The notes under the pieces are model-generated. The model saw only the letters and a program-made list of their open reading frames with translations. It did not search any database and had not been told where the DNA came from. Positions 7,432-48,803 of a stretch of DNA of 64,000 bases are shown here, piece after piece. The translations under genes and the position numbers were made by a program. The stretch covers positions 79,215 through 143,214 of the forward strand of contig RDXM01000083.1 in NCBI GenBank assembly GCA_004292595.1. Reading direction: 5' to 3'. This DNA comes from Candidatus Kapaibacterium sp. Its GTDB lineage: Bacteria; Bacteroidota; Ignavibacteria; Kapaibacteriales; UBA4661. Position 1 is the first letter of the stretch. The number at the start of each line of letters is the position of its first letter.

Positions 7432-7532
7432 AGTGGTATGTATGATAGTGAATGTGGTGGTGGTGATCGTGGTGGTTATCCGAAAAAATTGCAGTCTTTC
7501 CGTGCGCAACTCCTAAACATTGAGTAAGTACT

Positions 7533-10260: not shown

Positions 10261-12783
10261 TTACTTCCCTGCCTTACTTAAACTAATATTCGCAATATCC
10301 CGCAACACAGCATCATGCACTGCCGGACGCACCGCACGAATCTTGATGTTTTCCGAGGTTGGATGCACACGATTGGTGAGAAAAACAACGCACAGTTCTT
10401 TCGTCGGGTCGCACCAAACGCTTGTTCCCGTGTAGCCAGTATGTCCGAAAGAAACAGCAGCAAAACCGTCTCCACACGAGCCTTTGCCCTCGCCTTTTGT
10501 GTCCCAGCCTATGGCTCGCGTATTCGATTTTTCCTGCCGTGTGGTAAAAAGTTTCACCGTTTCGGGTCGAATAAACGGCGTTTTCCCGCTTTCAGGGAAA
10601 TAGATCGCTTTCAAAAGCTGGCAAACATCGCCCACACTACCAAACAACCCCGCATGACCAGCCACCCCACCCAACAAGGCAGCACGGGGGTCATGGACAA
10701 GAGGGCGCGTAAATGCTTGCTTCCAGAGCTTATCTTCTTCGGTAGGCACACAGCGCGAAAGAATATCACCTTTCGGAATAAAACCTAACGACGGAATACC
10801 AATCGGGCGAGCAATGTTTTCTGCAAAATACACATCCAGCGTTTTTCCCGTGATGCGCCGAACAATCTCACCAAGGGTGATAAAACCTAAATCGCTGTAC
10901 ACCATAGAATCACCCGTTTTATAGACGAGCTTTTCGTTATACAGAGCTTGCATTGCGGCATCTGCCCCTTGCACCTGCTGGTCGTAGGGACGAAATGCTG
11001 CCAAACCAGAATTATGCAGCAAAAGGTTAGAAATCCTAACATTTTTTTTTCCATTCGCTGCAAATTCTGGAATATACTTCGCTACGCTATCCTCTAACTT
11101 GATTTTTCCTTCATCGTATAACTTCAAAAAACACGTTGTTGTGGCAAGAACTTTTGTTAAGGATGCCATATCGTACACGGATTCTGTTGTTGTTTTTGCT
11201 GCGGTATGTGCGTAGGTCATTGTTCCGAATGCTTCTTGCGCTACAATTTTTCCTTTCCAAATCACGCCCAAACACGCCGAAGGAAAGGCAGAATCATAGA
11301 TGGAGCGCAGAATAACTTTTCGTGCGCTTTCAAAATCAAGGTCTTGCTGCACAGCAGTATTGATGTCGTTCTGCACACTGTTTTTATCGCTTGTGTTGTC
11401 TAGTGCGCCTCGTTTTTTCGCTTCATCGGCTTGTTTTTGCAAAAATTCTTTTGTGTAAATCAAGTATTTTTGTCGCTTTTTCTCAAACTCACGCACTTCG
11501 GCTTGTAAAGATTTTTCAATATCTTCGGGCGTTTTTCCTGCTTTTATCATCGCAATAACTTTGCGCGAACCCAAACTGCGTCCTGCGCGGTCGAGTTCTT
11601 TACTGCGAATCGAATCGGGCAGCATTGTGTATAATTCCTGAGCCACCGTTAGTGTTGTGAACAACGGCTTGATAACAGCGCGATTCGTTATTTTCAAGGA
11701 GAAACCATAACACTGTTTCCCCGCTAGTTTTGAGCTTTCGGGATTGAATACCATTGCGGAACATTCTAGTCCAGGCAATTTTTTTGCATCAATACGCCGA
11801 CCAAATTGCAACCCATTCGCAAAGTTCATACCAGGAATACTTACGCCATATGTTGTAAAGGGCGAATCGGTACCGCGCCCAACGCTCCACGTTATATCTT
11901 CCAGCGAACCCAACAAATGATAACCAATCACTGCATCCATTGAGCGAATGTTCGGACTAGGATTGCGCCAAGGAAAAGCAGGCTCTTGCTCGTCATAGAA
12001 TTTATTCGCCTGATAGCCTTGCATCGTAATCACCGTAAGTTTTGCATTGATGCCAAATTCTGTATTGTAGAATTGCGCAAGTTCGCCAATGGTCATACCA
12101 TGTGCAATCGGAATAGGATAATAACTGGCAAATCCGCCTTGAAACTCTTTTTCCAAAATTGGACCATATACGCCAAGCGGTGCTGCCATATTTGGGCGGT
12201 CGAGCACAAAAAAGGGTATTCCTGCTTGAGCGGCGGCTTTCATACAATACGCCATCGTCGTTGCATATGTGTAATATCGTACTCCGATTTCTTGAATATC
12301 GAACACTAAAGCATCCACGCCTTGCAATTCTTCTGGCGACGGCTCTTTTTTCTTTTCCTGATACAAGGAATAAATCGGCAATCCCGTTGCAGAGTCCGTT
12401 TCGTTTTTGTTCAGCAATTCATCTTTTGTGCCACGAATGCCATGCTCTGGCGCGAAGAGCTTTGTTACCAAGCCCTGTTTGTGGAAAATATCAACGGCAT
12501 GGTCGCCCGAGCGTGTAACAGCAGAATGATTGACAATCAAACCAATCTTTTTCCCGCGAAGTGGCGCAAAATCTTGGCTTTGCAATACTTCCAGCCCTAC
12601 CTTGAAAGGAAGAAGTGTGGCATTTTTGGGAGGATTCTGTGCGCACACACTCAATGCCGTGGCAGTGATTATCACCAATGCAAACAGATATGCGGCTTGA
12701 TAACGAAAAGAAGTATTCATAATACATTCAAAAAAAATAGAGGAAGTTCCAAAAAGAATTTCGTGCCAAACCGCACACAACAA
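10261..12783 (-). CDS. Fusion protein: an N-terminal DUF1343/NamZ-like (exo-beta-N-acetylmuramidase family) domain plus a C-terminal beta-lactamase-fold serine hydrolase.
   Basis: 840 aa with a signal peptide. The N-terminal half is DUF1343-like. The C-terminal half carries an SxxK motif (DMASLTKVLATT) and a later YSDLG, typical of class C/PBP4-type serine hydrolases. Confidence 0.7.
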   Translation of the reverse strand: MLCAVWHEILFGTSSIFFECIMNTSFRYQAAYLFALVIITATALSVCAQNPPKNATLLPFKVGLEVLQSQDFAPLRGKKIGLIVNHSAVTRSGDHAVDIFHKQGLVTKLFAPEHGIRGTKDELLNKNETDSATGLPIYSLYQEKKKEPSPEELQGVDALVFDIQEIGVRYYTYATTMAYCMKAAAQAGIPFFVLDRPNMAAPLGVYGPILEKEFQGGFASYYPIPIAHGMTIGELAQFYNTEFGINAKLTVITMQGYQANKFYDEQEPAFPWRNPSPNIRSMDAVIGYHLLGSLEDITWSVGRGTDSPFTTYGVSIPGMNFANGLQFGRRIDAKKLPGLECSAMVFNPESSKLAGKQCYGFSLKITNRAVIKPLFTTLTVAQELYTMLPDSIRSKELDRAGRSLGSRKVIAMIKAGKTPEDIEKSLQAEVREFEKKRQKYLIYTKEFLQKQADEAKKRGALDNTSDKNSVQNDINTAVQQDLDFESARKVILRSIYDSAFPSACLGVIWKGKIVAQEAFGTMTYAHTAAKTTTESVYDMASLTKVLATTTCFLKLYDEGKIKLEDSVAKYIPEFAANGKKNVRISNLLLHNSGLAAFRPYDQQVQGADAAMQALYNEKLVYKTGDSMVYSDLGFITLGEIVRRITGKTLDVYFAENIARPIGIPSLGFIPKGDILSRCVPTEEDKLWKQAFTRPLVHDPRAALLGGVAGHAGLFGSVGDVCQLLKAIYFPESGKTPFIRPETVKLFTTRQEKSNTRAIGWDTKGEGKGSCGDGFAAVSFGHTGYTGTSVWCDPTKELCVVFLTNRVHPTSENIKIRAVRPAVHDAVLRDIANISLSKAGK

Positions 12784-13125: not shown

Positions 13126-13521
13126 TTAGGAAATCATACCCAGACCTTGCAACGTGCTAATGACTTTTTCTCGGTCAATCGGTTTAATCAAGTACGCCTC
13201 GCATTGATGCTTGAATGCTGCTTTTACATTGGCGAAGTCGCCCAGAGCGGTTGTCATAACAACCTTTGCTCCAGAAAGCGAGAAAACGCCATGTTGTTGC
13301 TCTAATTCACGAATATTTTTTAGCACATCCTGTCCCGTCATTTCGGGAACCATAATATCTAAGAAAACAACATCAAATTTATTTGGTGTTTGTAATGCAG
13401 CCTGAAATTTTTCTAGTGCCTCACGCCCATTTTCCGCCGTAACAACCTCACCGTAAGGCGCGAGAATTTCCGTCATGACACTGCGGCTTACGAACTCATC
13501 TTCCATTACGAGCATTTTCAT
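13126..13521 (-). CDS. Single-domain response regulator (CheY-like receiver).
   Basis: The pattern MKMLVMEDE...DVVFLDIMVPEMTG...IKP contains the D-D-K receiver residues. It is a paralog of the REC domain of the Hpt-REC protein at 16350..17657. Confidence 0.85.
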   Translation of the reverse strand: MKMLVMEDEFVSRSVMTEILAPYGEVVTAENGREALEKFQAALQTPNKFDVVFLDIMVPEMTGQDVLKNIRELEQQHGVFSLSGAKVVMTTALGDFANVKAAFKHQCEAYLIKPIDREKVISTLQGLGMIS

Positions 13522-13646
13522 ACCATATCCTTGAATTCTTGTAAAATTTTGATTTTTAAAGACTAACTAGTATTATTTTTATAGTTGCTGGATATTCCCA
13601 CTTTGATAGCAAACAACCAAAAGCTACGTGCGATTTCCCAGCTATA

Positions 13647-16148
13647 TCATGATAAAAACTGCTTCCACGCACCAAAACGAAAGAAAGAATCTAACTGAGA
13701 AATTTCTTCTTGCAGCATACCAAATAACGATGGTGCTTCATGCAGCATACCATTTTTACCAATTTTCTCCAACTGAGCGCATAAATCCAAACATCGTTCT
13801 GCACCAAAATTCCCGACCGCCGATTTGAGTTTGTGGGCGCAGGCGTGCAAATTCACTGCATTATTTTCTTGCACAGCCAATTCAATCGCCGCCAAATCCA
13901 CAGAGTAATTCTGTAAGAAATACGTGATGAGTTTTTCAACAATGTCTTTTTTGCCATTGACCGCCTGCAAAAGGCGAGAAATGTCTGCTGGAGGCGTACC
14001 AGTCCAGATGGGCTGCATCTGTTTTTCATTATCTATTGTACTTCTACCATTTGCATCAAATCCGTTCTGTGCTTGCAGAGTTGCTTCATCGGATGTAGCA
14101 TTTTTCGCTTGCAACAGCCGCCAGATTGCATCGTATAATTTAGCAAAATCCAAAGGCTTTGTGACAACATCATCCATTCCTGCGCGGCGGCACATATCGG
14201 CATCTTGCGGAGTTGCATGGGCAGTAATACCAATAATGGGCAAATGCCGACGTGTGATTTTTTCATGCGCCCGAATAGCGGCGGTTGCTGTTAAGCCATC
14301 CATTTCTGGCATTTGGACATCCATCAAAATAATATCAACATCGAAGTTGGTGCGTTCTAATTCATCCAATGCTTCTTGACCATTGCCCACCATCAGGAGT
14401 TCCCAGCCATTGATACCGAGCGTTTCGCGCAATACAGCTTGATTTATCGGACTATCCTCTGCAACCAAAACGCGGAGCTGTCTGCTACTCGGAATTGCCT
14501 TAGGTGCATCTCCCGATGATGTGCGGACGAATGTTGCATTTTGCGCTTCTTCCTGAAGCTGCGTAATCGGCAAACGTACGGTAAAACCGAAGGTGGAACC
14601 GCGCCCTGCCTCGCTTTTGCACCACACGCCACCGCCCATCATTTCTGCAAGTTGTTTCGCAATGGCAAGCCCTAAGCCAGTTCCGCCGTATTTTCGCGTA
14701 AAGGAAGGGTCGATTTGACTAAAACTTTTGAACAATTTGTCCATTTTATCCTGCGCAATACCAATCCCAGAGTCTTGCACGACGCACTCGACAAGTGCAG
14801 AATTATCTTTTGCTTCGAGCAATCGAGCCGAAACCCGCACCGTGCCTTTGTCGGTGAATTTCATTGCATTGGCAATAAAATTATTCAAAATTTGCTTAAA
14901 ACGAATAGCATCGCCAACTAAGCGAGCCGGAATCGCCTCATCAACATTCATTTGTAGCTCTAACCCTTTATTCTGAGCTTGTGTGCGGAAAATCTCACAC
15001 ACATCAGCAATAAGCGTTTTAATATCAATCGGAATATTTTCAAATTCTAGTTTCTGCGCTTCAATTTTGGAAATATCCAAAATATCATTGATAATGTACA
15101 GCAGCGAATCTGCCGAAACCCGCACCATACGCAAGTATTCATGTTGCTTTGTCGTTAGATTATCCCCACTGACAAGCAGACTACTCATGCCAATAATCCC
15201 ATTGAGCGGTGTGCGTAGTTCGTGGCTCATATTTGCCAAGAACGTGCTTTTTGCGTCATTGGCAGCTTCAGCAATTTCTTTTGCCCGCACAATTTCTACT
15301 GTCCGCTCCGCAACGCGACGTTCCAGTTCTTCATTAATGCTCTTCATTGTTTCTTCTGCAGTTTTGCGCTCGGTAATATCTATACTTGCAAATACCGCCG
15401 CTTCGCCGTGATGATATTTTCGCCCAATTACAAAAAAGGTTTTGAGTCCGAGTGGCGTTTGTGTCTCAAGCTCAAACTCTGTTGTATCATTAGGGCTTTC
15501 AAAAAATTGTTGAATCAATTCCTTAAATCTCATTGTTCCGAACTGCTGGATAAACCCAACTTCTTTCCCCGCATACTCACTTGCTGGAACCCCCATGACG
15601 CTTTCAATGTGGTTGTTCACGCCAAGATATTTCAAATCTCTGCTAATCCACGAAATAGTGCCAGGAACAGAATTCAACACCGCCTCAAGCTGCTCTTTTG
15701 TTTCTTGCACTACTTTTCGCTGCTCGGCAAGCTGCTTCTCTACCAGCAACGTATTGACGGCGCGTTCTATCGCAACATACAGTTTTTCTTGCTTTACAGG
15801 CTTAATGATGTATTGGTCAATACCAATTTCAATCGCATTTAAGAGAAAATCTGTGCGGTCATATGCAGTGGTCAGAATAATTGGAATGCGGCTATTGTGC
15901 ATACGAATACGACGCGACATCTCCATGCCGTCCATTATCGGCATCGCAACATCAGCAACAATCACATCTGGCTGATATTTTTCAAACATCGCTAAACCTT
16001 CCTGTCCATCTTGTGCCAAGACAACTTTTTCGACGCGCTTTTCGAGCAGCATCTTTGTTAAAAGACGAATAGCGGGGTCGTCCTCCACATACAGAATGAC
16101 GACGGGCAGTTTGTCGAGGGATTGCGTTTGCTGGGTTACTTGGCTCAT
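13647..16148 (-). CDS. Hybrid sensor histidine kinase: REC - PAS - HisKA - HATPase - REC - Hpt.
   Basis: The H-box [14 protein letters not shown], the G-boxes DSGIGI and [11 protein letters not shown], two receiver domains (VVILYVEDD and LRVLVAEDS) and a C-terminal Hpt ([18 protein letters not shown]). Confidence 0.9.
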
Positions 16149-16349
16149 AAAGAATCGGAATGATGAGTCGAAAGGTCGGAATGATGAGTCAGAATGACGT
16201 TAGAAAATATCGTCAAAAACCATGAAAAATATAAAAAGCATGATACGACAACACTTTACGGCAAGGAAGACGGTGCAACAACAAGTACGAACAGACATCG
16301 TAAATTAAACTCTCTTGTACGCTCCAAAGCCGAACAAAGCTCTGGCTGG

Positions 16350-17657
16350 CTATTCTTCCAATAAATGGAGTTTTCGTAATTGATTGAGAACTTTTGCCCG
16401 CGAAATTGGCTTCGTAATATACGCATCGCATTGCAAACGAAATGCCTTGAAGATTTGGTCCATGCTATCAAGTGCAGTAGTCATCACAATTTTTGAGCGT
16501 TGTTGAATCGGGAGGTGCTTTTTGTCCTCCATCTCTCGAATGCCCTTCAAGGCTTGTGTTCCGTCCATCATCGGCATCATAATATCCAAACAGATGAGGT
16601 CGTATCCACCGCCATCATTGAGCGTTTGCTCATATGCCAATAGGGCTTCGCGCCCGTCGGCAGCAAGGTCGCACACTCCAAAGGGTGATAAAATTTCGTG
16701 AATAACGGTGCGACTGACAAAATCATCCTCTGCAATCAGAATATTCATCTTTTTGATAGAACGAACCTCTTTTTGCGCAGGCGCAGCCTGCACGGAGGCG
16801 GTTTGCACGGGCGCGTTCGCGGAAGAACTTCCAGAAACACGACCTGCTGAGGCTTGCGAGGCATTTCCTTGAACAACTGGTGCTTCTGGACTTGAAGAAG
16901 ACGCGCTGCTCGCTTTGCTGAGTACTTTCTCGACATCCACAGGCTTCACTGGGTCGAAAATATGCATTTCTAATTCATCCAGTTCAAAGGTTGTGGCTAT
17001 CACAAGACGCATCACCGATTCGGCTTCTGTGCGTGGTAAGTTCTTGTATTCGGGATAGGTGGCGATATGGATTCCCACATCCCGAATATCGTCGTAGATA
17101 GGCAAGGTTTCATAGCTATCTTGCGAAAGATGCTGCGGATTGATAATTTTTTCTATCTGGTACACATTGAACTTTTCCCGCACCATTCCCGCCAGTAACC
17201 CGCGCTGGCGCTCACTCAGTGGAAATTGTAGGTCAATAAAATTCTTTCCCTTTGCACTCCTTCCGCCCCTGCGTTGCTGGGCTTCCTCGTGAATCTGCTC
17301 TAATTCACGTTGCAAGACAACAAGCTCCGCATGATGCTCTGTCGGAAGAAAAACATTGAACCGCATCGCATCTACCGCCATAAGGGATTTGTGAACAAGA
17401 AGTTGCGTCGGCTCGGCAAGTCCATTGCGCACTAAATCAAAGTTTGATTCTACTGCGTGAATAAGCTGCGACGAAGCATCGCGCTGGGCAAGCCCAAGTG
17501 TGCTTTTGAGGTTGTGTGCGATACGAAAGATTTGGTGAACACTCTCGGTCTTATCACTTTGTGTGTCCAGCATTTCCTCAAAGTTGAGAAGCAACTGCTC
17601 TAAACGTTCTATGAGGTCGATAATATCGCTCAGTTGGGATTCTTGGTCGTCCATCAT
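16350..17657 (-). CDS. Hpt domain - unknown linker (about 200 aa) - receiver domain protein.
   Basis: The N-terminal Hpt-like HQIFRIAHNLKSTLGLA matches FRxaHtlKG. The C-terminal REC is MNILIAEDDFVSRTV...ICLDIMMPMMDG. The middle region is Ala/Ser/Gln-rich. Confidence 0.7.
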   Translation of the reverse strand: MMDDQESQLSDIIDLIERLEQLLLNFEEMLDTQSDKTESVHQIFRIAHNLKSTLGLAQRDASSQLIHAVESNFDLVRNGLAEPTQLLVHKSLMAVDAMRFNVFLPTEHHAELVVLQRELEQIHEEAQQRRGGRSAKGKNFIDLQFPLSERQRGLLAGMVREKFNVYQIEKIINPQHLSQDSYETLPIYDDIRDVGIHIATYPEYKNLPRTEAESVMRLVIATTFELDELEMHIFDPVKPVDVEKVLSKASSASSSSPEAPVVQGNASQASAGRVSGSSSANAPVQTASVQAAPAQKEVRSIKKMNILIAEDDFVSRTVIHEILSPFGVCDLAADGREALLAYEQTLNDGGGYDLICLDIMMPMMDGTQALKGIREMEDKKHLPIQQRSKIVMTTALDSMDQIFKAFRLQCDAYITKPISRAKVLNQLRKLHLLEE

Positions 17658-17734: not shown

Positions 17735-18106
17735 CTATAACAAACCAACCGCTTTCAAGGCAGTTTTCATGCGGTCGCCAGAGAAAGGCTTTACTAAATA
17801 ATGGTTTGCACCAAGCTGTTGCAATTTTGCTTGCATTTCGGGGCTATCCAGCGTCGAAAGCATAACAACGGGGGTTTTTCCAGCAGTCGCGTGCTTGCGC
17901 ACTCGTTTCAAAAATTCCATTCCGTTCATGTTTGGCATTTCAATATCAGAAAAAATGACATCGAAGGTTTTGGAATCTAATACTTTTAAGCCTTGAATGC
18001 CATCCTCGGCTAAATCAACCTTAAAGCCAGACATTGCAAGAAAGGTGCGCGTTGCCGAGCGATGAATCTCGGTATCATCAACGACTAAAGCAGTCTTGAA
18101 AGCCAT
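17735..18106 (-). CDS. cheY: CheY-like single-domain response regulator.
   Basis: 123 aa with LVVDDTEIHR...DVIFSDIEMPNMNG...LVKPF. Confidence 0.85.
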   Translation of the reverse strand: MAFKTALVVDDTEIHRSATRTFLAMSGFKVDLAEDGIQGLKVLDSKTFDVIFSDIEMPNMNGMEFLKRVRKHATAGKTPVVMLSTLDSPEMQAKLQQLGANHYLVKPFSGDRMKTALKAVGLL

Positions 18107-18193: not shown

Positions 18194-19300
18194 CTACACA
18201 ATCCACGGTTTCTTTTCTGGCGACGAAATATGAACCGCTTTCGAGCCAACCTGAATAAAGACCGTTCTGCTGAACGATTGCCCCGTATCTTCAGAAGCGA
18301 TGGTGATGCCGAGTGCTTGAAGGAGTTGCTTGATAGCAGCAATATTTTTCTCGCCAATTTTGAAATAATTTCCAGCATCTGCGCCCGTTTGCGCACCACC
18401 AGCGAGCTTTGCCGTTAGCTGCGACATCGGCTTGCGGAAGCCCTTGGCTCGCATTTCGTTGATGAGAGCGGGAATGGCAGTATCGGCGAAATATCCAGGC
18501 AAACTCTTCGCTTTTTCGGGCGATGTTTGCGAGCTTGCCAAGGCAACGTGCGCCATACCAACGACATCCTGCGTCGGGCTAAACAAACACACCGCCACAC
18601 ACGAACCAAGCGCGAAGGTTTTCACAATTTTCCCATACTCATACGCCACGCCAAATTCTCCAACACCCAAAATCAGCTGCGGAATGCGCTCTTCGTAGTT
18701 TGGTATAGTTGCTTGCGAAGAAGTCTGCGTTGTACTTGGGCGCACAGGCGACGGAGCAAGACTTGATGAAGCAAGATTTGATGAGGCTTGCGGAGAAATT
18801 TGCGTGGGCAGTTTTGCGGGCAGTGCTGGTGGCGGCGAACCGCCTTGCGCACCAATCATACCGCGCTGACGCGCCGAGCGCACCTCGCTGCCGCTTACCC
18901 GATATGCTGCCCGAATTTTTACCACTAAACGCGCAAGTGTTTCTTGAAAACCTTGCGGATTCAAGGCAGAAGGTTTGGGAATAAAATCTACTGCACCCGC
19001 TTCTAATGCCTGTAAGGTAATACTTTTGTCGTTTTGCGCCCACGAACTGAGAACAATGATGGGCAGAGCATCACGCATCATCGCCGCTTTGATAAAATCC
19101 AAGCCGTTCATCACGGGCATTTCCATATCGGTTACGACGACATCCACAGCAAGTATTTGGAGCTTGTCCAAAGCATCCTGACCATGCACCGCCACGCCAA
19201 CAATTTCTAGCTCATGCTCTGGCGCACTCAAGGACTTCGTGAGCATATCTCGAACAAGTGGCGAATCATCCACTAATAAAACACGTATTTTTTCAGCCAT
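18194..19300 (-). CDS. cheD: Fusion of a CheB-type receiver domain to the CheD chemoreceptor glutamine deamidase.
   Basis: The N-terminal REC (MAEKIRVLLVDDSPLVRDML...) is about 60% identical to the REC of the adjacent CheB. The C-terminal half aligns with B. subtilis CheD (FALGSCVAVCLF..VGMAHVALASS; YFADTAIPALINEMRAKG; AKLAGGAQ; GITIASEDTGQSFSRTVFIQVGSKAVHIS). The start was chosen at the internal Met because the track start at 19429 overlaps cheB. Confidence 0.8.
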   Translation of the reverse strand: MAEKIRVLLVDDSPLVRDMLTKSLSAPEHELEIVGVAVHGQDALDKLQILAVDVVVTDMEMPVMNGLDFIKAAMMRDALPIIVLSSWAQNDKSITLQALEAGAVDFIPKPSALNPQGFQETLARLVVKIRAAYRVSGSEVRSARQRGMIGAQGGSPPPALPAKLPTQISPQASSNLASSSLAPSPVRPSTTQTSSQATIPNYEERIPQLILGVGEFGVAYEYGKIVKTFALGSCVAVCLFSPTQDVVGMAHVALASSQTSPEKAKSLPGYFADTAIPALINEMRAKGFRKPMSQLTAKLAGGAQTGADAGNYFKIGEKNIAAIKQLLQALGITIASEDTGQSFSRTVFIQVGSKAVHISSPEKKPWIV

Positions 19301-19361: not shown

Positions 19362-20501
19362 TTACACGCCAACTGCCTGCAAAATCGCCGCACCAATTTT
19401 GGGGAGCGGTAACACAGTTTGTACCGCACCGACTTCCTGCGCTACTTTGGGCATTCCAAAGACAACGGAGGTCGCTTCATCCTGCCCAATCGTTTTTGCA
19501 CCTGCATCGCGCATAGCTTTCAAGCCTTGTGCGCCGTCATTGCCCATACCAGTTAAAATCACACCACACGCATTCGCGCCAACGTATTCAGCAACGGACT
19601 TCATCATCACATCCACCGACGGACGATGCCCATTTACTTTATCTTCTTGCGACAACACAATTTCATATCGCCCACCAGAACGCACTACTTTCAAGTGCAT
19701 ATCGCCCGGAGCAACGAGAATACGCCCTGTTACAACGCGGTCGCCGTTGGCAGCTTCTTTTACCTCCATAGCACATTCTTCATTCAAGCGGTCAGCAAAG
19801 GTTTTCGTAAAACCTTGCGGCATATGCTGAACAACAACCACGCCAGGGGTCGTTGCGGGAAACTCACGCACCAAGCGGCGAATAGCCTCCGTACCGCCAG
19901 TGCTTGCACCAATGGCAATCACCTTGTCCGTGGATTCTGCCAGTGCTTTGGCTTTCAGTGGAGTAGTTGTTGCTCCGCCAAGACCAGCACCTGCGCCCGA
20001 AGAAGAAGCCGCTCCAGCACTTGCGCCCGTAATCGCTCCAGCACCTGCCCGCACGGAGTTGAACAGTTCTTCGCGTTTTGATTTCCAGTGCGATACATTT
20101 GCCGTCGAAGCAATTTTTACTTTTGTACGCAATTCCATCATCATCCCTTGCAAGCCCTGTGCCACATTGGAAGTCGGCTTGGCAACAAAATCCACCGCAC
20201 CTGCTTCCAATGCCTGCATGGTAATTTCCTTCCCGCGTTGCGTCAGCGAACTGACCATCACAACCGGAAGAGGAAATTGCGGCATTAAACGGCGCAAAAA
20301 CTCAACGCCATCCATACGTGGCATTTCGACATCCAGCGTGAGAACATCGGGACGCAATTCCACAATTTTATCCCGTGCAACAAACGGGTCTGGCGCAACG
20401 CCAACGACTTCGATATTTGGGTCTGCGCCCAAACCTTGCGAAAGAATATCCCGCACCAAAGCGGAATCATCAACGATAAGAACACGAATTTTTTTGCTCA
20501 T
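19362..20501 (-). CDS. cheB: Protein-glutamate methylesterase CheB (REC plus methylesterase).
   Basis: REC MSKKIRVLIVDDSALVRD and a methylesterase core AIGASTGGTEAI...VVVQHMPQGFT...GRILVAPGDMHL. Confidence 0.9.
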   Translation of the reverse strand: MSKKIRVLIVDDSALVRDILSQGLGADPNIEVVGVAPDPFVARDKIVELRPDVLTLDVEMPRMDGVEFLRRLMPQFPLPVVMVSSLTQRGKEITMQALEAGAVDFVAKPTSNVAQGLQGMMMELRTKVKIASTANVSHWKSKREELFNSVRAGAGAITGASAGAASSSGAGAGLGGATTTPLKAKALAESTDKVIAIGASTGGTEAIRRLVREFPATTPGVVVVQHMPQGFTKTFADRLNEECAMEVKEAANGDRVVTGRILVAPGDMHLKVVRSGGRYEIVLSQEDKVNGHRPSVDVMMKSVAEYVGANACGVILTGMGNDGAQGLKAMRDAGAKTIGQDEATSVVFGMPKVAQEVGAVQTVLPLPKIGAAILQAVGV

Positions 20502-20595: not shown

Positions 20596-21453
20596 TTACG
20601 GCTTTTGGTACAATGCTGGACTAATATAACGAAAGGATGATGAATCACGTGAAATAGTCTCTGAATGCCCAATAAATAAGAAACCGCCCGGCTCAAGCGC
20701 GTTGTAGAAGCGTTCGACAAGTGCATCGCGGGTGGGTTTATCAAAATAAATCATGACATTTCGGCAAAAAATGGCGTGGAATGGGCGTTTGAAAGGAAAG
20801 TGCGTATTCATCAAATTAAATTTTCGATAGACAACATCTTTCTGCACCTGCGGTAAAATCTGGATTTCACCTGTGGGAAGCTGTTTGGTGTATTTACGTC
20901 TGTAATTATCGGGCAATAGCTCAATGCGTTCAAGCGGATAGACTCCTGCCTCGGCAACACCCAGCGCACGTTCGGAAATATCCGTCGCCAACACGCCTGC
21001 TTTCCACTTGGGATATTCTGCGCCAAAGTAATCCATAAGAAGCATTTGCAGCATATACGACTCTTCGCCCGAAGAGCAGCCAGCACACCAAATACGCAGG
21101 TCAAATTCACGCTTTGCGCTGAGTGTCGCCGAAATGCTCGGTAAAAACTGCCGCGTAAAAAACTCAAAGTGGTCTTTTTCGCGCCAGAAAAACGTATGAT
21201 TTGTGGTAATGTGATTGGCAAATTCAATCAGTGCTTCGGAATTGCCGCCAGCACGTGTCAAATACTCGTGATACTCATGGAAACTCGTCATTCCCATCTT
21301 CCGAAGCACTTTTTGTAAGCGCACCGTTACCATCGTCCGCTTTTCGGGAGGCAAGAAAATACCAAAACGGTCATACACAAGACGGCTCAAGCTGTCAAAT
21401 TCATCAACTGAAAGCTGAACCGAAACAATATCTTCAATCGCTGGAACCTGCAT
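20596..21453 (-). CDS. cheR: Chemotaxis protein methyltransferase CheR.
   Basis: The CheR N-terminal domain plus a SAM-dependent methyltransferase fold: TNHTFFWRE...RIWCAGCSSGEESYMLQM...FCRNVMIYFD. Confidence 0.9.
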   Translation of the reverse strand: MQVPAIEDIVSVQLSVDEFDSLSRLVYDRFGIFLPPEKRTMVTVRLQKVLRKMGMTSFHEYHEYLTRAGGNSEALIEFANHITTNHTFFWREKDHFEFFTRQFLPSISATLSAKREFDLRIWCAGCSSGEESYMLQMLLMDYFGAEYPKWKAGVLATDISERALGVAEAGVYPLERIELLPDNYRRKYTKQLPTGEIQILPQVQKDVVYRKFNLMNTHFPFKRPFHAIFCRNVMIYFDKPTRDALVERFYNALEPGGFLFIGHSETISRDSSSFRYISPALYQKP

Positions 21454-21473: not shown

Positions 21474-23630
21474 TTAATAGCGACCAAACTCGCTGTCATC
21501 AAGGCGAATGGTGTCGTGTGCGGCGAGCATTTTTTGCGACGGTGCCGCAAGGTGCGCATCTTCTTTTTCTAACGATGCTTTTCTTGCATTGCCACTAGCA
21601 ACGCCGCTTTGCTGATACGCTTGCCCGCTATAATTCTTGTGCTTTGAAGGCATTTCATGTTTCAGTTTTGGGGAAGAACCATGATGCAATGACCCCGCTC
21701 CAAACGAGGAGTCTTGGCGCAACTGAAAGCGCGAGCTGACAACATTATTCAGTTCAACCGCTTGTTTAGAAAGCTCTTCGGCGGCGGCGGCGCACTCTTC
21801 GGCGGCGGCGGTGTTTTGCTGCGTTACGCGGTCAATCTGCGCAAGCCCAATATTAACTTGCGAAATACCTTGCGCTTGCTCATTCGAGGCAGAAGCAATT
21901 TCACCAACAATATCACGGACTTTCACACTAGCAAGCATGATTTCTTCGAGTGCCTGCGCGGTACGAGCAGCAATTTGTGTGCCTCTATCTGCGGTTTCGA
22001 CCGCAGATTCAATCAAATCTGCTGTTTCTTTCGCCGCTTTCGCGCTGCGTGCTGCCAAGCTCCGCACCTCTTCTGCGACCACCGCAAAACCCTTTCCATG
22101 CCGCCCTGCACGCGCCGCTTCCACAGCCGCATTCAGCGCAAGCAAATTCGTTTGGAAAGCAATTTCGTCAATGACTTTGATAATTTTTGAAATATTTCTG
22201 CTGGATTCGTTAATTGCCGACATTGCACTGCCAAGCTGCTCCATTTCTGCATTTCCACGTTGAGCAATGCTATTTGCATCCAAAGCAACAATATTTGCCT
22301 GATTTGCATTCTCAGCATTGATGCGGGTTTGCGAGGCAAGTTCGTGCATGGAGCCAGTAATTTCTTCCAATGCTGCTGCCTGCTCCGACGCACCATGCGA
22401 GAGCGACGTGCTTGCGTCGGCTACTTGCGACGCGCCACGCGTTACTTGCCCAATAATTTCCATTACATTTTGCAGAACATCAGCAATCGCGCTAATCGTG
22501 GAGTTGATATTTGACTTCAATGCCGCGTGGTCGCCTTTGTAATTGCCTTGCATTGGCTGGCGCAAATCACCCTCAGCCATATGCTTCAGCACCGATACCG
22601 CTTCTTGAATGGGATAAATCGTGGCATCCAACGTAGAATTTACGCCCGCAATAATGTCGCGGTACGCACCGTGAAAATGCTTTTCGTTGCCGCGTGTTTT
22701 CAGGTCGCCGCTTGTGGCAGCCTTTGTCAGCCCGTTGGTTTCTTCGGCAAGGTCTTGAATTGTCTGAACAATTTGCTTCTTCATCCTAGCGAGGTCGCCC
22801 ATTTCATCGAGGTTTGAAATGCTAAAGGAAATATTTTTCAAGTCGCCCACAGCAACCTTCGCATTCACTTCTTGGAGAAGTTTGATGGGCTTGACAAGGA
22901 ATCCGGCAATCAGGAAAATAGCAAGAATAATGCCCGCCGATGACAACCCAACAATCGAAGCAATCACCAAGGATTTTTCCGCCGTTGTTGCCTGTACCTC
23001 GTTCAAGCTCATGCTTACTTCAAATGCTCCATGCACTTCGCCTACTTTCCAGTTTTCCATTTTCGCGCCCGTTATGTCCTTGCCCTCAGAGTTTCCCCAC
23101 AATGCTGCTGATTCTGCTGGGTCGCCATGACATTGCATACATTCTTGCGTCAATTTTATCGGGCGGAAGTAGTGCAGTTGATTGGTGGCAGCATCTATTT
23201 CTTGATATTCGGTCAGCGTACCATCTTCAAGTTTTCTCAGAACAGCAAGCTCATTTGCATTTGGCTCATTGTCGGGATTGCGCGGTTGAATTTTCGGAAC
23301 TTTTATCGTAAAGCCTAGTTCCCGTGCCTTTTTCCGCGCTACTTCCATTGCCGAAAAAATCGGAATAGTATGCAAAATCTGCTCGGTGGTAAAGTTCGAT
23401 GAGCGCACATCTTTGAATACGCCTTGTTTTATCTGGTCGGCGGCATATTCGCGGGCGGACTCTGCCGCATAGACCAGTGTTCGCGCCTTATTCACGAGCG
23501 CATCAGTCGCGGCTTCGCGGTAAATTTTTGAAAAATACCAGTATGAAACAGCACCGCTCGCAAGAGAAATAATGACAATCGGCAAAATAAGTTTCCAGCG
23601 AATAGGCAAAGAAAGCCACCAGTTTTTCAT
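21474..23630 (-). CDS. Methyl-accepting chemotaxis protein with a periplasmic CxxCH (c-type heme) sensor domain (DUF3365/Tll0287-like).
   Basis: TM1, then a periplasmic domain ending [47 protein letters not shown], then TM2, HAMP repeats and the MA core [35 protein letters not shown]. The likely start is the internal Met [10 protein letters not shown]. Confidence 0.8.
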
Positions 23631-23794
23631 GGTATAGTCTCCAAAAATATAGTACAATCGTGTAATACAGTCGTATTGTACAATCAAACACGAAAAAAAT
23701 TTATTGATTTATTGGCACAAAAAGCTCTCTGTTCTTGCTTTCACACCCATTGCGTACCTTGCCCAGAATCTTTCTTGCTCTGAATTATTGCTCT

Positions 23795-23933
23795 CCTCTG
23801 TACACGACAAAACCTCTGAAAGGTGCATAAAATCAGGCTTCAGTGGCTTGAGGCTTCTTGCCTGTGTTTGTCGTCTGAAACCCGCACCAGAATGTCTGTG
23901 CCACTATGAAAGGAGTTTTGTCGTATACAGAGG
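23795..23933. repeat. MITE-like element of about 139 bp with 19 bp terminal inverted repeats (cctctgtacacgacaaaac / gttttgtcgtatacagagg). Copy A.
   Basis: The core taaaatcaggcttcagtggcttgaggcttcttgcctgtgtttgtcgtctgaaacccgca recurs, inverted, at about 31442..31566. The TIRs were read directly. Confidence 0.55.
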
Positions 23934-23954
23934 TTGCTCTCGTTATTGCTCTCA

Positions 23955-26477
23955 TTATTGCTCCAGCATTTCCAATACTTCCAGCGCACCCTCATTCAAC
24001 GATAAAACAGCATCAACATCAGTAATCAAGCCAATTTCACCGTTGCTGAGTATCATGCAGCCTGTTACGCCTTTCACGCTGCCCACATAGTCCGAAAGCC
24101 CCTTGACAACGATTTGCTGCTGCCCGATAATTTCATCCACAAACAAGCACGCACGTCGCTCGCGGGCTTCGACCACCACCAAAATTCCTTTCTGCAAATT
24201 TGTTGTTTGTGGTACAATGTCATAGACTTCATGCAAACGAATGACCGAAAACAAATCCTCTCTCACGCGCACCACTTCTTGCCCATCCATCGTAATCGTG
24301 ATAGCTTCGGGCTGCGGGCGAAACGATTCTCGAATAGAAAGTATCGGCAGGGCGTACACTGCTTGACCAACACGAATCAACATTCCTTCCATAATCGCTA
24401 AGGTCAAGGGAATACGCAGCGTGAAGCGTGTTCCCAAGCCCTCTTTGCTGTCCACCGTAATGCTGCCTTGCAACTTTTCGATATTCCGCTTCACAACGTC
24501 CATTCCCACGCCACGTCCCGAAATATCCGAGATTTTATCAGCAGTAGAAAAGCCCGGCTCGAAAATAATTTGAAAAACTTCGCGGTCGGTTACTTTGTCG
24601 GGAGCGGTTTTGATAATTCCTTTAGAAACAGCTTTATCCAAAATTTTCTGCCGATTCAATCCGCCACCGTCATCTTCAATAATAATCAAAATTTCATTTC
24701 CTTCGTACCGAGCTTGTAGTTTCACAACGCCTGTTTCGCTCTTTCCTGCTGCAATGCGCCGTTCACGGCTTTCTACGCCGTGGTCTATCGCATTGCGAAG
24801 AATGTGCATGAGCGGGTCGGAGATTTCTTCAATAACGTTTTTATCCATTTCCGTTTCCGCGCCAGAAATCACCAAGCTAATTTTCTTGTCGAAGCGCATG
24901 GACACGTCGCGCACGAGGCGTTTCATTTTATTGAACAAGCCTTCAACAGGTGTCATACGAATTGACATCGTTACTTCCTGCAATTCGCGGGTAATTTTAT
25001 TCAGCATTCCTGCTGCCCGCGTGAAGCTCTGCAATTCCAACGCAACCACTTCAGGATTGCTTGTTACCATTGTTTCAATGGTAATCAACTCGCCAACCAA
25101 ATCAAAAAGTTTATCCAATTTTTCGGTATCCACACGAATATCTTTGCGCTGGGCAAGCCCAGATGCCGCTTGCGGAGCGGCGGCTTGCGTGGCAGACGAT
25201 TGCATCGCCACTGGCGAAGGAGCTTGCTCAATGTTTGCCGACACTGCTTCTGGCAATACGTCCGAAGAAGCGAATTTTGGTATGTCGTTATGCAGCGCAG
25301 CAGCAGCCTGTATGCTGTGTGCAGGAATATCCTGTATATGTACGGATGCGGGTTGTGCAGAAGATACCTGCGCTGGCGAAGCCGAAAGGGTCGCAGTTTG
25401 GACATTCTTTGCTTTAGCAGCCTCCTTAGGAGCATCCTGCTGCTGCGAACTCACGCTCGGTGCATTGGTCATAAGTGCTTGCACGGCAGTTTTGATGATG
25501 TCGATATTGGTCAAAATCATCGAAATCAAGCCTGGATAAACCTCAATCGCCTTTGAGCGCACGGCATCAAGGATATTTTCCAAATCCATACTCATATCTT
25601 CAATTTCTGCAAAGCCCATAAAACCTGAGTTTCCCTTAATGCTATGCACTGCACCAAAGACATCGGCGACAATGCCCATATTGTGGGGGTCTTGCTCCAA
25701 AATCAAGCACCCATCTTCGACACGAGCAATCAGGTCGAGTGCTTCGGCAACATAGCGTGCAAGCATTTCACCTGTGGCGGCGGCGAGTCCTGCTCTATCG
25801 GGGAAGTCCGACTCAGAAGCTACTGGTGCAGCAACTGGAGGTGGTGGTGGTGTTTCTTCGCTGCTCAGAAGCGCGAGTTGGTCGTCATTAAAGAAAAAAT
25901 CGGTATCGGAGAAGATAGATTGAGATTGAAATTGCGTAGCAGCGTGTGTATGAGCTTCTGGATTGGCGGAAGAAGAAAACGACGGAGCAAACATTGGCTC
26001 TTCGCTCGGCACAAAAACTTCTTGAGATGGTGCGTGAGATGCTGGTGGCTTGGAAGCACTCTCAAGCCTTCCTCCGCCAGACTTCAGCAGTGTAATTGCT
26101 TGCTGCAAGCGTCCGATAAGATTTTTGACAGAGACTTCCTGTCCAGTATCTTTCAGCGAATCACTCACGGTATTGAGCAGGGTGCGAATAACGTCAAATG
26201 CCTCGTAAATAATACCGATGATGTCTTCATTGGGAATCCCAGTCATATTGCGCAGAATGTCCAGCATTGTTTCGGACTCATGCGTTACGGTATTGATGGT
26301 GTTAAAATTCAAAAAGCCCGACAGTCCCTTAATCGTGTGGAAAACGCGAAAAATGGAATGAATACTCTCTCGATTCGAGCCATCGGCAATATCCTGAATA
26401 CGACCTTCCTGCTCATCAAGTGAGTCTAATGATTCGGCAACAAATGCGCGGACTATCTCCAGCGTTTCACGATCCAT
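23955..26477 (-). CDS. cheA: Chemotaxis histidine kinase CheA with two tandem Hpt (P1) domains.
   Basis: P1 domains HSIFRVFHTIKGLSGFL and VFGAVHSIKGNSGFMGF, a dimerisation domain, an HATPase domain (IIIEDDGGGL...GRGVGMDVV) and a C-terminal CheW-like P5. Confidence 0.9.
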   Translation of the reverse strand: MDRETLEIVRAFVAESLDSLDEQEGRIQDIADGSNRESIHSIFRVFHTIKGLSGFLNFNTINTVTHESETMLDILRNMTGIPNEDIIGIIYEAFDVIRTLLNTVSDSLKDTGQEVSVKNLIGRLQQAITLLKSGGGRLESASKPPASHAPSQEVFVPSEEPMFAPSFSSSANPEAHTHAATQFQSQSIFSDTDFFFNDDQLALLSSEETPPPPPVAAPVASESDFPDRAGLAAATGEMLARYVAEALDLIARVEDGCLILEQDPHNMGIVADVFGAVHSIKGNSGFMGFAEIEDMSMDLENILDAVRSKAIEVYPGLISMILTNIDIIKTAVQALMTNAPSVSSQQQDAPKEAAKAKNVQTATLSASPAQVSSAQPASVHIQDIPAHSIQAAAALHNDIPKFASSDVLPEAVSANIEQAPSPVAMQSSATQAAAPQAASGLAQRKDIRVDTEKLDKLFDLVGELITIETMVTSNPEVVALELQSFTRAAGMLNKITRELQEVTMSIRMTPVEGLFNKMKRLVRDVSMRFDKKISLVISGAETEMDKNVIEEISDPLMHILRNAIDHGVESRERRIAAGKSETGVVKLQARYEGNEILIIIEDDGGGLNRQKILDKAVSKGIIKTAPDKVTDREVFQIIFEPGFSTADKISDISGRGVGMDVVKRNIEKLQGSITVDSKEGLGTRFTLRIPLTLAIMEGMLIRVGQAVYALPILSIRESFRPQPEAITITMDGQEVVRVREDLFSVIRLHEVYDIVPQTTNLQKGILVVVEARERRACLFVDEIIGQQQIVVKGLSDYVGSVKGVTGCMILSNGEIGLITDVDAVLSLNEGALEVLEMLEQ

Positions 26478-48686: not shown

Positions 48687-48803
48687 AGCATTTTTCCTGC
48701 AAAAGTGGGCGAATTGTCTCCACCGAAATATAGAGTTTTTTGGGGCAAAAGTCAAGAGCGATAATGCTCTACATTCAACAAACAAGCCGCATAGAGAGCT
48801 TTA

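What the first reader, a model, noticed from the sequence alone, without database searches (positions are those of the whole stretch)
21474..23630. MCP with a c-type heme (CxxCH) periplasmic sensor domain, embedded in the che operon
The periplasmic domain between TM1 and TM2 ends with [10 protein letters not shown] followed by a conserved Gly/His-rich stretch ([13 protein letters not shown]). A CxxCH motif in a periplasmic sensor implies covalent heme c, as in DUF3365/Tll0287-like or Geobacter-type heme-PAS chemoreceptors. This suggests the pathway senses redox state, O2, NO or another small ligand. The same window also has a di-heme cytochrome c peroxidase, so heme c maturation must be available.
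Basis: partly seen in the sequence, partly recalled or inferred. Interest (0 to 1): 0.6.

Follow-up and report, generated by a model that had tools for sequence, protein, structure and literature searches.

The report
Heme-c Cache-sensor chemoreceptor in che operon
This gene encodes a bacterial chemotaxis receptor whose outward-facing sensor very probably carries a covalently bound heme and detects a gas such as nitric oxide or the redox state.

Summary
Window 21474..23630 (-) encodes a 718-aa, two-transmembrane chemoreceptor (MCP). Its periplasmic domain (residues ~34-219) holds the protein's only CxxCH (C164-M-Q-C-H168) and the conserved stretch [15 protein letters not shown].

The domain matches Pfam PF11845 (Tll0287-like/DUF3365) at E=4e-31. 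A confident AlphaFold model (pLDDT 93.8) has Tll0287 (5b82) as its best PDB match.

The gene lies in a conserved cluster: CheA, MCP, CheR, CheB, REC-CheD, CheY, Hpt-REC, hybrid kinase. The organism is a Candidatus Kapaibacterium MAG (Bacteroidota). A di-heme peroxidase is also in the window.

A 2026 preprint (PMC12889525) renamed this family sCache_heme. It lists MCP fusions, counts hits in Kapabacteria, and shows that one signalling-linked member binds NO tightly.

New details found here:
- No Cys is available as an axial ligand, unlike Tll0287.
- Met191 and His200 are conserved in this mostly MCP-linked subfamily. Both are absent from two short HAMP-only relatives and from Tll0287.
- The GenBank protein for this gene (TAE30992.1) starts at M191, so it omits the whole heme sensor.

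The signal sensed (NO, redox or O2) is still inferred. Verdict: a new member of a known kind, of modest interest.

The parts
21474..23630 (-). Full MCP gene (718 aa + stop): TM1, sCache_heme sensor, TM2, HAMP, HAMP_2, MCP signalling domain, linker, C-terminal pentapeptide
   Evidence: ORF and start site. Pfam domains. The identical 718-aa product is called on Logan contig SRR7244341_14260.
23532..23594 (-). TM1 / signal anchor (about residues 13-33)
   Evidence: Hydropathy windows above 1.5, with K2, R11 and K13 on the N-terminal side. The AlphaFold model has a continuous helix over residues 10-68.
23010..23516 (-). Periplasmic sCache_heme (Tll0287-like/DUF3365, PF11845) sensor domain, residues 39-207
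   Evidence: PF11845 E=4.4e-31. phmmer against 5b82_A E=0.0017. Model pLDDT 93.8. Foldseek top match 5b82. 877 representative clusters are related at E<=1e-3.
23127..23141 (-). CxxCH heme-c attachment motif (C164-M-Q-C167-H168). H168 is the presumed proximal axial ligand.
   Evidence: It is the only CxxCH in the protein, and these are the only Cys in the periplasmic domain. Conserved in 164-165 of 165 relatives. It sits in a short helix (165-168) between strand 151-159 and strand 199-208. This matches the insertion between beta3 and beta4 that defines the family in PMC12889525.
23016..23060 (-). Conserved stretch M191-E-N-W-K-V-G-E-V-H200-G-A-F-E-V. It holds the two candidate distal ligands or pocket residues, Met191 and His200.
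   Evidence: Met191 157/163, His200 148/162, G197 162/162, G201 160/162. In a wider set of 222 sequences, Met is about 93% and His about 82% conserved. Tll0287 has Ala and Arg at the aligned positions. The HAMP-only proteins P0245 and P0247 have neither residue.
22905..22973 (-). TM2 (about residues 220-242)
   Evidence: Hydropathy up to 2.5. Model helix over residues 210-232.
22785..22913 (-). HAMP domain (residues 240-282)
   Evidence: PF00672, 25.6 bits against a gathering score of 25.
22482..22676 (-). Second HAMP-type domain (HAMP_2, residues 319-383)
   Evidence: PF18947 E=1.7e-22.
21822..22286 (-). MCP signalling domain (residues 449-603), with the hairpin motif QTNLLALNA at residue 493 and methylation-type sites at 419, 461 and 608
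   Evidence: PF00015 E=1e-47. Collinear with the E. coli-type MCP models in NCBIfam. Motif scan.
21477..21491 (-). C-terminal pentapeptide E-F-G-R-Y after a linker of about 75 residues. It is a probable tethering site for CheR and CheB.
23955..26477 (-). CheA (two Hpt domains, dimerisation domain, HATPase, CheW-like P5 domain), directly upstream
   Evidence: Pfam. Same position in L085 and L087.
20596..21453 (-). CheR methyltransferase
   Evidence: Pfam CheR_N + CheR.
19362..20501 (-). CheB (REC + methylesterase)
   Evidence: Pfam.
18194..19300 (-). REC-CheD fusion (368 aa)
   Evidence: Pfam Response_reg + CheD. Conserved downstream of CheB in L085, L087 and L088. The architecture recurs in many lineages.
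17735..18106 (-). Single-domain CheY-like response regulator
   Evidence: Pfam Response_reg E=2e-28.
13126..17657 (-). Downstream phosphorelay genes: Hpt-REC (16350..17657), hybrid kinase REC-HisKA-HATPase-REC-Hpt (13647..16148) and REC (13126..13521)
   Evidence: Pfam. Hpt-REC is also present in L085. These genes are absent from L087 and L088.

Best explanation
The gene encodes a two-transmembrane methyl-accepting chemotaxis protein. Its periplasmic domain is an sCache_heme (DUF3365/Tll0287-like) sensor.

Inferred from family knowledge: after export, the cytochrome c maturation system attaches one heme c to Cys164 and Cys167, and His168 is the proximal iron ligand.

Shown from the sequence: the distal side is not a cysteine as in Tll0287.

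Hypothesis: the distal side offers a labile endogenous ligand or pocket built from the conserved Met191 and/or His200.

Inferred signalling steps:
1. A small heme ligand binds. NO is the most likely (about 0.4). A change of the iron's redox state that swaps the distal ligand is the main alternative (about 0.35).
2. The sensor's conformation changes.
3. The change passes through TM2, HAMP and HAMP_2 to the MCP hairpin and alters the activity of the adjacent CheA.

Inferred adaptation: methylation and demethylation at the consensus Glu/Gln sites by the co-encoded CheR and CheB, probably recruited by the C-terminal EFGRY pentapeptide, with a REC-CheD protein as a further modifier.

The conserved gene order suggests this receptor is the dedicated input of this Kapaibacterium chemosensory cluster.
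For: - Family and fold. PF11845 scores 108.7 bits against a gathering score of 24.1. The model has pLDDT 93.8. Its best PDB match is the heme protein Tll0287, followed by GSU0935 and single-Cache sensor domains such as WalK and PctD.
- Heme motif. CxxCH is far beyond chance, is kept in 164/165 relatives and in 99% of the family (PMC12889525), and lies in the periplasm.
- Heme machinery. A di-heme peroxidase on the same contig shows that the organism makes c-type cytochromes.
- Subfamily output. Of the 144 nearest representative clusters, 101 carry the MCP hairpin motif. Of the 32 longer ones without the motif, 19 match Pfam MCPsignal and 3 match a histidine-kinase ATPase domain.
- Pathway link. 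The order CheA-MCP-CheR-CheB-REC_CheD recurs around homologs whose sensor domains are 69% and 65% identical.
- Adaptation. Methylation-type motifs and an xZxxZ pentapeptide are present.
- Signal. A signalling-linked sCache_heme protein without an axial Cys binds NO with koff 6e-4 per s and forms no stable O2 complex. The Geobacter heme MCP sensors switch spin and ligand on reduction and bind NO and CO (PMC8396549).
Against: - Heme attachment and ligand binding are not demonstrated for this protein or for any close relative.
- The only NO biochemistry comes from one Pseudomonas azotoformans HAMP-only receptor. Two proteins of that same architecture in my set, P0245 and P0247, lack both Met191 and His200. 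The pocket here may therefore behave differently.
- I could not obtain model coordinates, so whether Met191 or His200 can reach the iron is untested.
- No cytochrome c maturation genes, denitrification genes or CheW gene were found in the ORFs annotated across the 64-kb window.
- A 324-nt gap separates cheA from the MCP gene, so co-transcription is not certain.
Confidence: 0.8

Rival explanations
1. Redox or 'energy taxis' sensor. The heme cycles between Fe(III) and Fe(II) with the periplasmic redox poise. Reduction brings Met191 (or His200) onto the iron, a high-spin to low-spin switch as in Geobacter GSU0582/GSU0935. That ligand switch, not a gas, is the physiological signal.
For: Met191 is conserved in about 93-96% of relatives and His200 in 82-91%. 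This suggests an endogenous sixth ligand. The Geobacter heme MCP sensors are high-spin when oxidised and become low-spin on reduction through Met binding (PMC8396549). Stand-alone family members are considered redox-related.
Against: In the one member tested in a signalling assay, oxidation or reduction alone changed output less than NO did (10.64898/2026.05.25.727664). The Geobacter Met ligand comes from a different part of the fold and a different Pfam family (PF21563, not matched here). The geometry of Met191 and His200 relative to the heme is untested.
Confidence: 0.3
2. Oxygen sensor, as proposed for Desulfovibrio DcrA. O2 binds to or oxidises the periplasmic heme c and drives aerotaxis or oxygen avoidance.
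For: DcrA is the historical precedent of an MCP with a periplasmic c-type heme proposed to sense O2 or redox (PMC8396549). Rapid autoxidation of signalling-type sCache_heme could report O2 indirectly.
Against: None of the tested sCache_heme proteins forms a stable O2 complex. Unlike DcrA, this protein has no cytoplasmic PAS domain. Whether DcrA's sensor is homologous to this one was not tested.
Confidence: 0.1
3. The heme is structural or vestigial. Either the Cache pocket binds a non-heme small molecule, or the CxxCH motif is not matured in this organism.
For: Cache domains normally bind small organic ligands. No maturation genes are visible in the window.
Against: CxxCH is conserved in 99% of the whole family and in 164/165 relatives here. 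The heme-bearing insertion occupies the pocket region in Tll0287-type folds. A di-heme peroxidase in the same genome implies working maturation.
Confidence: 0.05

Closest known systems
sCache_heme domain family (DUF3365 / Tll0287-like, Pfam PF11845), as defined by Deshpande, Xing, Gumerov, Crane and Zhulin, bioRxiv 2026 (PMC12889525)
   Same: HMM match well above threshold. CxxCH lies in a helical insertion between beta3 and beta4 of a single-Cache fold. Periplasmic location. Fusion to HAMP and an MCP signalling domain is one of the architectures the authors list. Their Table S3 records 29 hits in 97 Kapabacteria genomes.
   Different: This protein cannot have been in their protein sets in its full form, because the GenBank protein (TAE30992.1) starts at M191 and lacks the sensor. 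The subfamily here carries conserved Met191 and His200, which the preprint does not discuss.
Pseudomonas azotoformans Cache_heme-HAMP (CHH) receptor, a periplasmic NO sensor (PMC12889525; 10.64898/2026.05.25.727664)
   Same: Two-TM membrane receptor with a periplasmic sCache_heme domain that lacks the axial Cys, followed by a HAMP domain. It is the model for 'signalling-linked members sense NO'.
   Different: The CHH receptor has no MCP output and signals through a bound Ser/Thr kinase. Here the output is an MCP domain in a che cluster, and no kinase of that type was found among the ORFs scanned. Two proteins with the CHH architecture, P0245 and P0247, lack Met191 and His200. The P. azotoformans sequence itself was not available for comparison.
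Tll0287 of Thermosynechococcus elongatus (PDB 5b82)
   Same: Best sequence and structure match in the PDB. Same CxxCH position, a shared RNP motif and the same YFR segment.
   Different: Tll0287 is a soluble stand-alone protein with His/Cys ligation. Here the residue aligned to Cys68 is Ser93, and no other Cys exists in the domain. Tll0287 has Ala and Arg where this protein has Met191 and His200.
Geobacter sulfurreducens heme MCP sensors GSU0582/GSU0935 (PDB 3b47/3b42; Pfam PF21563) and Desulfovibrio DcrA
   Same: MCPs with one periplasmic c-type heme in a PAS/Cache-like sensor. They bind NO and CO and switch spin state on reduction. 3b42 is the third-best structural match.
   Different: PF21563 is below threshold (14.5 against 27 bits). 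HMMER finds no sequence match to those chains. Their distal Met60 comes from the N-terminal helical part, whereas the conserved Met here lies 23 residues after the CxxCH His. DcrA's relationship was not tested.

Membership tests
sCache_heme / Tll0287-like / DUF3365 (PF11845) | Profile HMM match above Pfam's gathering score | tested here: met
   108.7 bits against 24.1, residues 39-207 covering profile positions 2-143 of 144.
sCache_heme / Tll0287-like / DUF3365 (PF11845) | Canonical CxxCH in a short helix inserted between beta3 and beta4 of the Cache core | tested here: met
   C164-x-x-C167-H168. Model: strand 151-159, helices 165-168 and 171-178, strand 199-208. Family definition.
sCache_heme / Tll0287-like / DUF3365 (PF11845) | Extracytoplasmic location, required for heme c maturation | tested here: met
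   By prediction only. The domain is flanked by two hydrophobic helices, has positive residues N-terminal to TM1, and HAMP follows TM2 directly.
sCache_heme / Tll0287-like / DUF3365 (PF11845) | Fold similarity to Tll0287 and to single-Cache sensors | tested here: met
   [not shown]
sCache_heme / Tll0287-like / DUF3365 (PF11845) | Covalently bound heme c | not testable with these tools
   Needs heme staining, a pyridine hemochrome assay or mass spectrometry of the expressed domain.
Tll0287-type ('Cluster 1') His/Cys-ligated stand-alone proteins | Axial cysteine ligand (Cys68 of Tll0287) and stand-alone architecture | tested here: not met
   There is no Cys in residues 34-219 other than CxxCH. 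The aligned residue is Ser93, and it is S, T or A in all 167 relatives. The protein is fused to HAMP and MCP domains.
Geobacter heme MCP sensor (PF21563, Mcp40H-20_sensor; GSU0582/GSU0935) | Profile HMM match above the gathering score | tested here: not met
   14.5 bits against 27, E=0.043. No HMMER match to the 3b42 or 3b47 chains.
Geobacter heme MCP sensor (PF21563, Mcp40H-20_sensor; GSU0582/GSU0935) | Structural similarity | tested here: inconclusive
   3b42_B ranks third but is weak (E=0.016, TM 0.23/0.37). The crystal form is a domain-swapped dimer.
Methyl-accepting chemotaxis protein | MCP signalling domain with the conserved hairpin, HAMP, and methylation-type sites | tested here: met
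   PF00015 E=1e-47, HAMP and HAMP_2. QTNLLALNA at residue 493, and [ASTG]xx[EQ][EQ]xx[ASTG][ASTG] sites at 419, 461 and 608.
[not shown]
   The protein ends in EFGRY after about 75 low-complexity residues. Criterion from PMC7390727. Binding to CheR or CheB was not tested.
CHH receptor / Ser-Thr kinase NO-signalling module | Cache_heme-HAMP protein without its own output domain, encoded next to a PknB-like kinase | tested here: not met
   This protein has an MCP output domain. Its neighbours are che genes, and no protein kinase domain was found in the ORFs scanned.
CHH receptor / Ser-Thr kinase NO-signalling module | Tight, selective NO binding | not testable with these tools
   Needs spectroscopy and koff measurement.

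The most novel reading that the evidence does not exclude
The MCP-linked branch to which this receptor belongs may be a distinct coordination class of sCache_heme. In it, Met191 and/or His200 would supply an endogenous sixth ligand (His/Met or bis-His). Tll0287 (His/Cys) lacks both residues, and so do two proteins with the architecture of the characterised NO-binding CHH receptor. Such a receptor would work as a ligand-switch redox or gas sensor. It would feed a Kapabacteria-type chemosensory pathway that has a phosphorylatable REC-CheD and, in this genome, no linked CheW.
Probability: 0.3. Interest if true: 0.45.

Novelty: new member of a known kind. Interest (0 to 1): 0.3.

Why it matters
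- It adds a clear example of a heme-c Cache chemoreceptor that is physically wired into a complete che cluster in a little-studied Bacteroidota lineage, Kapabacteria. That makes it a good candidate for testing what such receptors sense.
- It shows that database surveys can miss such sensors. The deposited protein for this gene starts inside the sensor domain and lacks the heme motif.
- The conserved Met191/His200 pair gives a specific mutational test. It would show whether signalling-linked sCache_heme domains all behave like the single NO sensor studied so far.
- None of this changes the general picture already published in 2026.

Tried and rejected
- Geobacter-type membership: rejected. PF21563 is below threshold and HMMER finds no match to 3b42 or 3b47.
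- His/Cys ligation as in Tll0287: rejected. No Cys is available.
- Measuring Met191-iron and His200-iron geometry: not possible. Model coordinates are not exposed to the script sandbox.
- The Tll0287 structure paper (PMC5465485) is not held. The heme-pocket description of 5b82 could therefore not be cited.
- A hidden element or CheW remnant in the 324-nt cheA-mcp gap: not found. The gap has no clear sequence conservation with the syntenic gap in L085, no terminator-like site on the coding strand and no CheW similarity.
- CheW elsewhere in the window: none. tblastn finds only the CheA P5 domain, weakly.
- Close relatives in GTDB species genomes: none over the full length. The best are 40-41% identical (Desulfuromusa, Geothermobacter), and most hits align only to the cytoplasmic part.
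- Literature on REC-CheD fusions: nothing found in the searchable library.
It was replaced by a motif count plus a scan of the 32 longer, motif-negative sequences.
- The sequence of the characterised P. azotoformans receptor (A0A127HZT3) could not be retrieved. Two proteins of the same architecture, P0245 and P0247, served as proxies.
Full report
**1. The observation**

The minus-strand ORF 21474..23687 has an ATG at 23630, preceded by GGAG 8-11 nt upstream. From that ATG it encodes 718 residues.

Hydropathy gives two membrane segments, at about residues 13-33 and 220-242. K2, R11 and K13 lie before the first segment, and a HAMP domain starts at the end of the second. Residues 34-219 are therefore predicted to be periplasmic.

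The only two cysteines of the domain are those of the motif.

From the window's own amino-acid composition, 0.0002 CxxCH motifs are expected in 186 residues. Only 37 of 200,000 shuffles of the domain recreate one.

**2. What it is**

Pfam assigns four domains:
- residues 39-207: PF11845, Tll0287-like, formerly DUF3365 (E=4.4e-31, 108.7 bits, gathering score 24.1)
- residues 240-282: HAMP
- residues 319-383: HAMP_2
- residues 449-603: MCPsignal

The Geobacter-type sensor model PF21563 is below threshold (14.5 against 27 bits).

In the PDB, the only sequence match of the sensor is Tll0287, 5b82. An AlphaFold2 model built on 23 sequences is confident (pLDDT 93.8, pTM 0.86). Its best Foldseek match in the PDB is 5b82 (E=6.5e-7). 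GSU0935 (3b42) ranks third, and WalK, PctD and TlpA sensor domains are also among the top hits.

In the model, CxxCH sits in a short helix (165-168) between strand 151-159 and strand 199-208. This is the insertion between beta3 and beta4 that defines the family in the literature.

The cytoplasmic part is collinear with the E. coli-type MCP models of NCBIfam. It has the hairpin motif QTNLLALNA at residue 493 and methylation-type sites at 419, 461 and 608. It ends in EFGRY after a linker of about 75 residues. That ending fits the xZxxZ rule for CheR/CheB-tethering pentapeptides (PMC7390727).

**3. Organism and public annotation**

Exact look-ups place other proteins of the window on a 144,445-nt GenBank contig of a 'Candidatus Kapaibacterium sp./Kapabacteria bacterium' MAG, in Bacteroidota.

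For the MCP, the full 718-aa product is recorded only from an independent Logan assembly (SRR7244341). The GenBank protein TAE30992.1 is 528 aa and begins at M191, [11 protein letters not shown].... The deposited annotation therefore lacks TM1 and the whole heme sensor.

The longer start is supported in two ways. Homologs align from residue 1, with up to 69% identity over the sensor. The start at 23630 also has a ribosome-binding site.

**4. Context**

On the same strand lie:
- CheA, 23955..26477 (two Hpt domains, dimerisation domain, HATPase, P5)
- the MCP
- CheR, 20596..21453
- CheB, 19362..20501
- a REC-CheD fusion, 18194..19300
- a CheY-like REC, 17735..18106
- Hpt-REC, 16350..17657
- a hybrid kinase, 13647..16148
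- another REC, 13126..13521

Around the closest homolog (P0031, 69% identical in the sensor, locus L085) the order is identical. It runs from a divergently transcribed S8 peptidase through CheA, MCP, CheR, CheB, REC-CheD and REC to Hpt-REC. Around the next homolog (P0032, 65%, loci L087 and L088) the order is CheA-CheW-MCP-CheR-CheB-REC_CheD. The receptor is thus a conserved component of this cluster.

In the window and in L085 there is no CheW gene. The 324-nt gap where CheW sits in L087 has no clear sequence conservation and contains no CheW remnant.

It shows that the organism matures c-type cytochromes. No maturation genes were found among the window's annotated ORFs.

**5. The family and its conserved residues**

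An exhaustive HMMER search of 1.84 billion representatives finds 877 related clusters at E<=1e-3 and 147 at E<=1e-30.

Of the 144 newly retrieved clusters among the best 150, 101 carry the MCP hairpin motif. Of the 32 longer ones without the motif, 19 match Pfam MCPsignal and 3 match a histidine-kinase ATPase domain. The remaining 11 are shorter than 300 residues and probably fragments. This branch is therefore mostly MCP-linked.

Conservation in 167 aligned sequences:

| Position | Conserved in |
|---|---|
| C164 | 164/165 |
| C167 | 165/165 |
| H168 | 164/165 |
| R117 | 165/165 |
| P90 | 164/164 |
| G197 | 162/162 |
| M191 | 157/163 |
| H200 | 148/162 |

The residue aligned with the axial Cys68 of Tll0287 is Ser93 here, and S, T or A throughout. 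With no other Cys in the domain, His/Cys ligation is excluded.

In a wider set of 222 sequences, Met191 is about 93% conserved and His200 about 82%. Three comparison groups differ:
- Stand-alone proteins of about 210 aa keep the Met but have Arg, Lys or Ser in place of the His.
- Two HAMP-only proteins of 294 and 296 aa (P0245, P0247) have neither. They share the architecture of the characterised Pseudomonas azotoformans receptor.
- Tll0287 has Ala and Arg at these positions.

Met191 and His200 are therefore candidate distal ligands or pocket residues specific to this branch.

**6. How it most likely works**

Shown: family membership, fold, motif position and conservation, predicted topology, MCP output and che linkage.

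Inferred from family knowledge: one heme c is attached to C164 and C167, with H168 as the proximal ligand.

The published evidence on what such sensors detect is as follows.
- PMC12889525 shows that a signalling-linked sCache_heme protein without the axial Cys is six-coordinate and low-spin. It binds NO with koff 6e-4 per s and forms no stable O2 complex. A stand-alone His/Cys member binds NO weakly.
- A follow-up preprint shows that NO binding changes the cytoplasmic output more than oxidation or reduction does.
- The Geobacter heme MCP sensors switch from high-spin to low-spin on reduction through Met binding, and they bind NO and CO.

I therefore favour a heme ligand-switch sensor. My estimates are: NO as the most probable signal (about 0.4), redox state next (about 0.35), and O2 or another ligand less likely.

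The signal would pass through TM2, HAMP and HAMP_2 to the hairpin and control CheA. Adaptation would come from CheR and CheB, probably recruited by EFGRY, and from REC-CheD.

The output of the pathway (flagellar motor or another function) is unknown. The adjacent Hpt-REC and hybrid-kinase genes are present in L085 but not in L087 and L088.

**7. Comparison with what is known, and novelty**

However, the family was described and renamed sCache_heme in February 2026 (PMC12889525). That paper lists MCP fusions among the standard architectures. Its Table S3 counts 29 hits in 97 Kapabacteria genomes. Earlier precedents for heme-c MCP sensors are DcrA and GSU0582/GSU0935.

The finding is thus a new member of a known kind. 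The modest additions are the truncated public annotation, the conserved Met191/His200 pair that sets this branch apart from the studied proteins, and the conserved che synteny with REC-CheD.

**8. Limits**

- No biochemical evidence exists for this protein or for any close relative.
- The NO inference rests on one distant relative whose proxies lack the two conserved residues.
- The topology is predicted, not measured.

Noticed in passing
window 23061..23630 (-), relative to GenBank protein TAE30992.1: The deposited GenBank protein for this gene is 528 aa and starts at M191 ([11 protein letters not shown]...). It omits TM1 and the whole heme sensor, including CxxCH. An independent Logan assembly calls the full 718 aa.
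   Followed up: yes
L082 10571..10573 (GCA_044228685.1, JBGAUL010000002.1); also L083: In the closest GenBank homolog, an in-frame TGA replaces the Trp codon of the conserved MENW motif. The receptor is split into a 190-aa Tll0287-like ORF and a 490-aa HAMP-MCP ORF in the same frame. The same stop appears in two assemblies. It could be a pseudogene, read-through or recoding; this is unresolved.
   Followed up: partly
window 18194..19300 (-): A receiver domain is fused to CheD, a phosphorylatable receptor deamidase or modifier. It is conserved downstream of CheB in L085, L087 and L088. The same architecture occurs in many protein clusters from Kapabacteria, Ignavibacteria, Bacteroidota, Nitrospinota and Thermodesulfobacteriota, mostly annotated just as 'response regulator'. 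No paper on it was found.
   Followed up: partly
window 23631..23954 and the whole window: There is no CheW gene in the cluster or anywhere in the 64 kb. A relative (L087) has CheW between CheA and the MCP, exactly where this genome and L085 have a 324-nt gap with no clear sequence conservation.
   Followed up: yes
window 5563..7509 (-) and 38597..40993 (-): Two more MCP genes lie in the window. One has a four-helix-bundle sensor and the same HAMP/HAMP_2/MCPsignal layout, with the hairpin at the same residue (493), but no C-terminal pentapeptide. The other has TPR repeats.
   Followed up: partly
window 21477..21491 (-): The heme MCP ends in EFGRY after a long low-complexity linker, which fits the xZxxZ pentapeptide rule for CheR/CheB tethering. 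Its closest homolog ends in the same five residues. Only 8 of the 101 MCP-motif homologs end in an aromatic-x-x-aromatic motif.
   Followed up: partly
window 1268..2518 (-): A di-heme cytochrome c peroxidase (PF03150, two CxxCH), annotated as such in GenBank (TAE30937.1). It lies about 19 kb from the che cluster and is not obviously linked to it.
   Followed up: yes
window 10261..12783 (-): An 840-aa protein combines the NamZ exo-beta-N-acetylmuramidase N- and C-domains with a C-terminal beta-lactamase-family domain. It lies next to an acyltransferase_3 gene. It may act in peptidoglycan recycling.
   Followed up: no
P0022 (Logan protein, 386 aa): A metagenomic protein joins the C-terminal half of an sCache_heme sensor (ending ...[13 protein letters not shown]) directly to a CheB receiver and methylesterase. 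It is probably an assembly chimera or a deletion across an MCP-CheR-CheB cluster.
   Followed up: no
window 42927..43727 (+) and 47985..48785 (-): Two Uma2-family putative endonuclease genes lie about 4 kb apart, flanking phosphate acetyltransferase and a cation-efflux gene.
   Followed up: no
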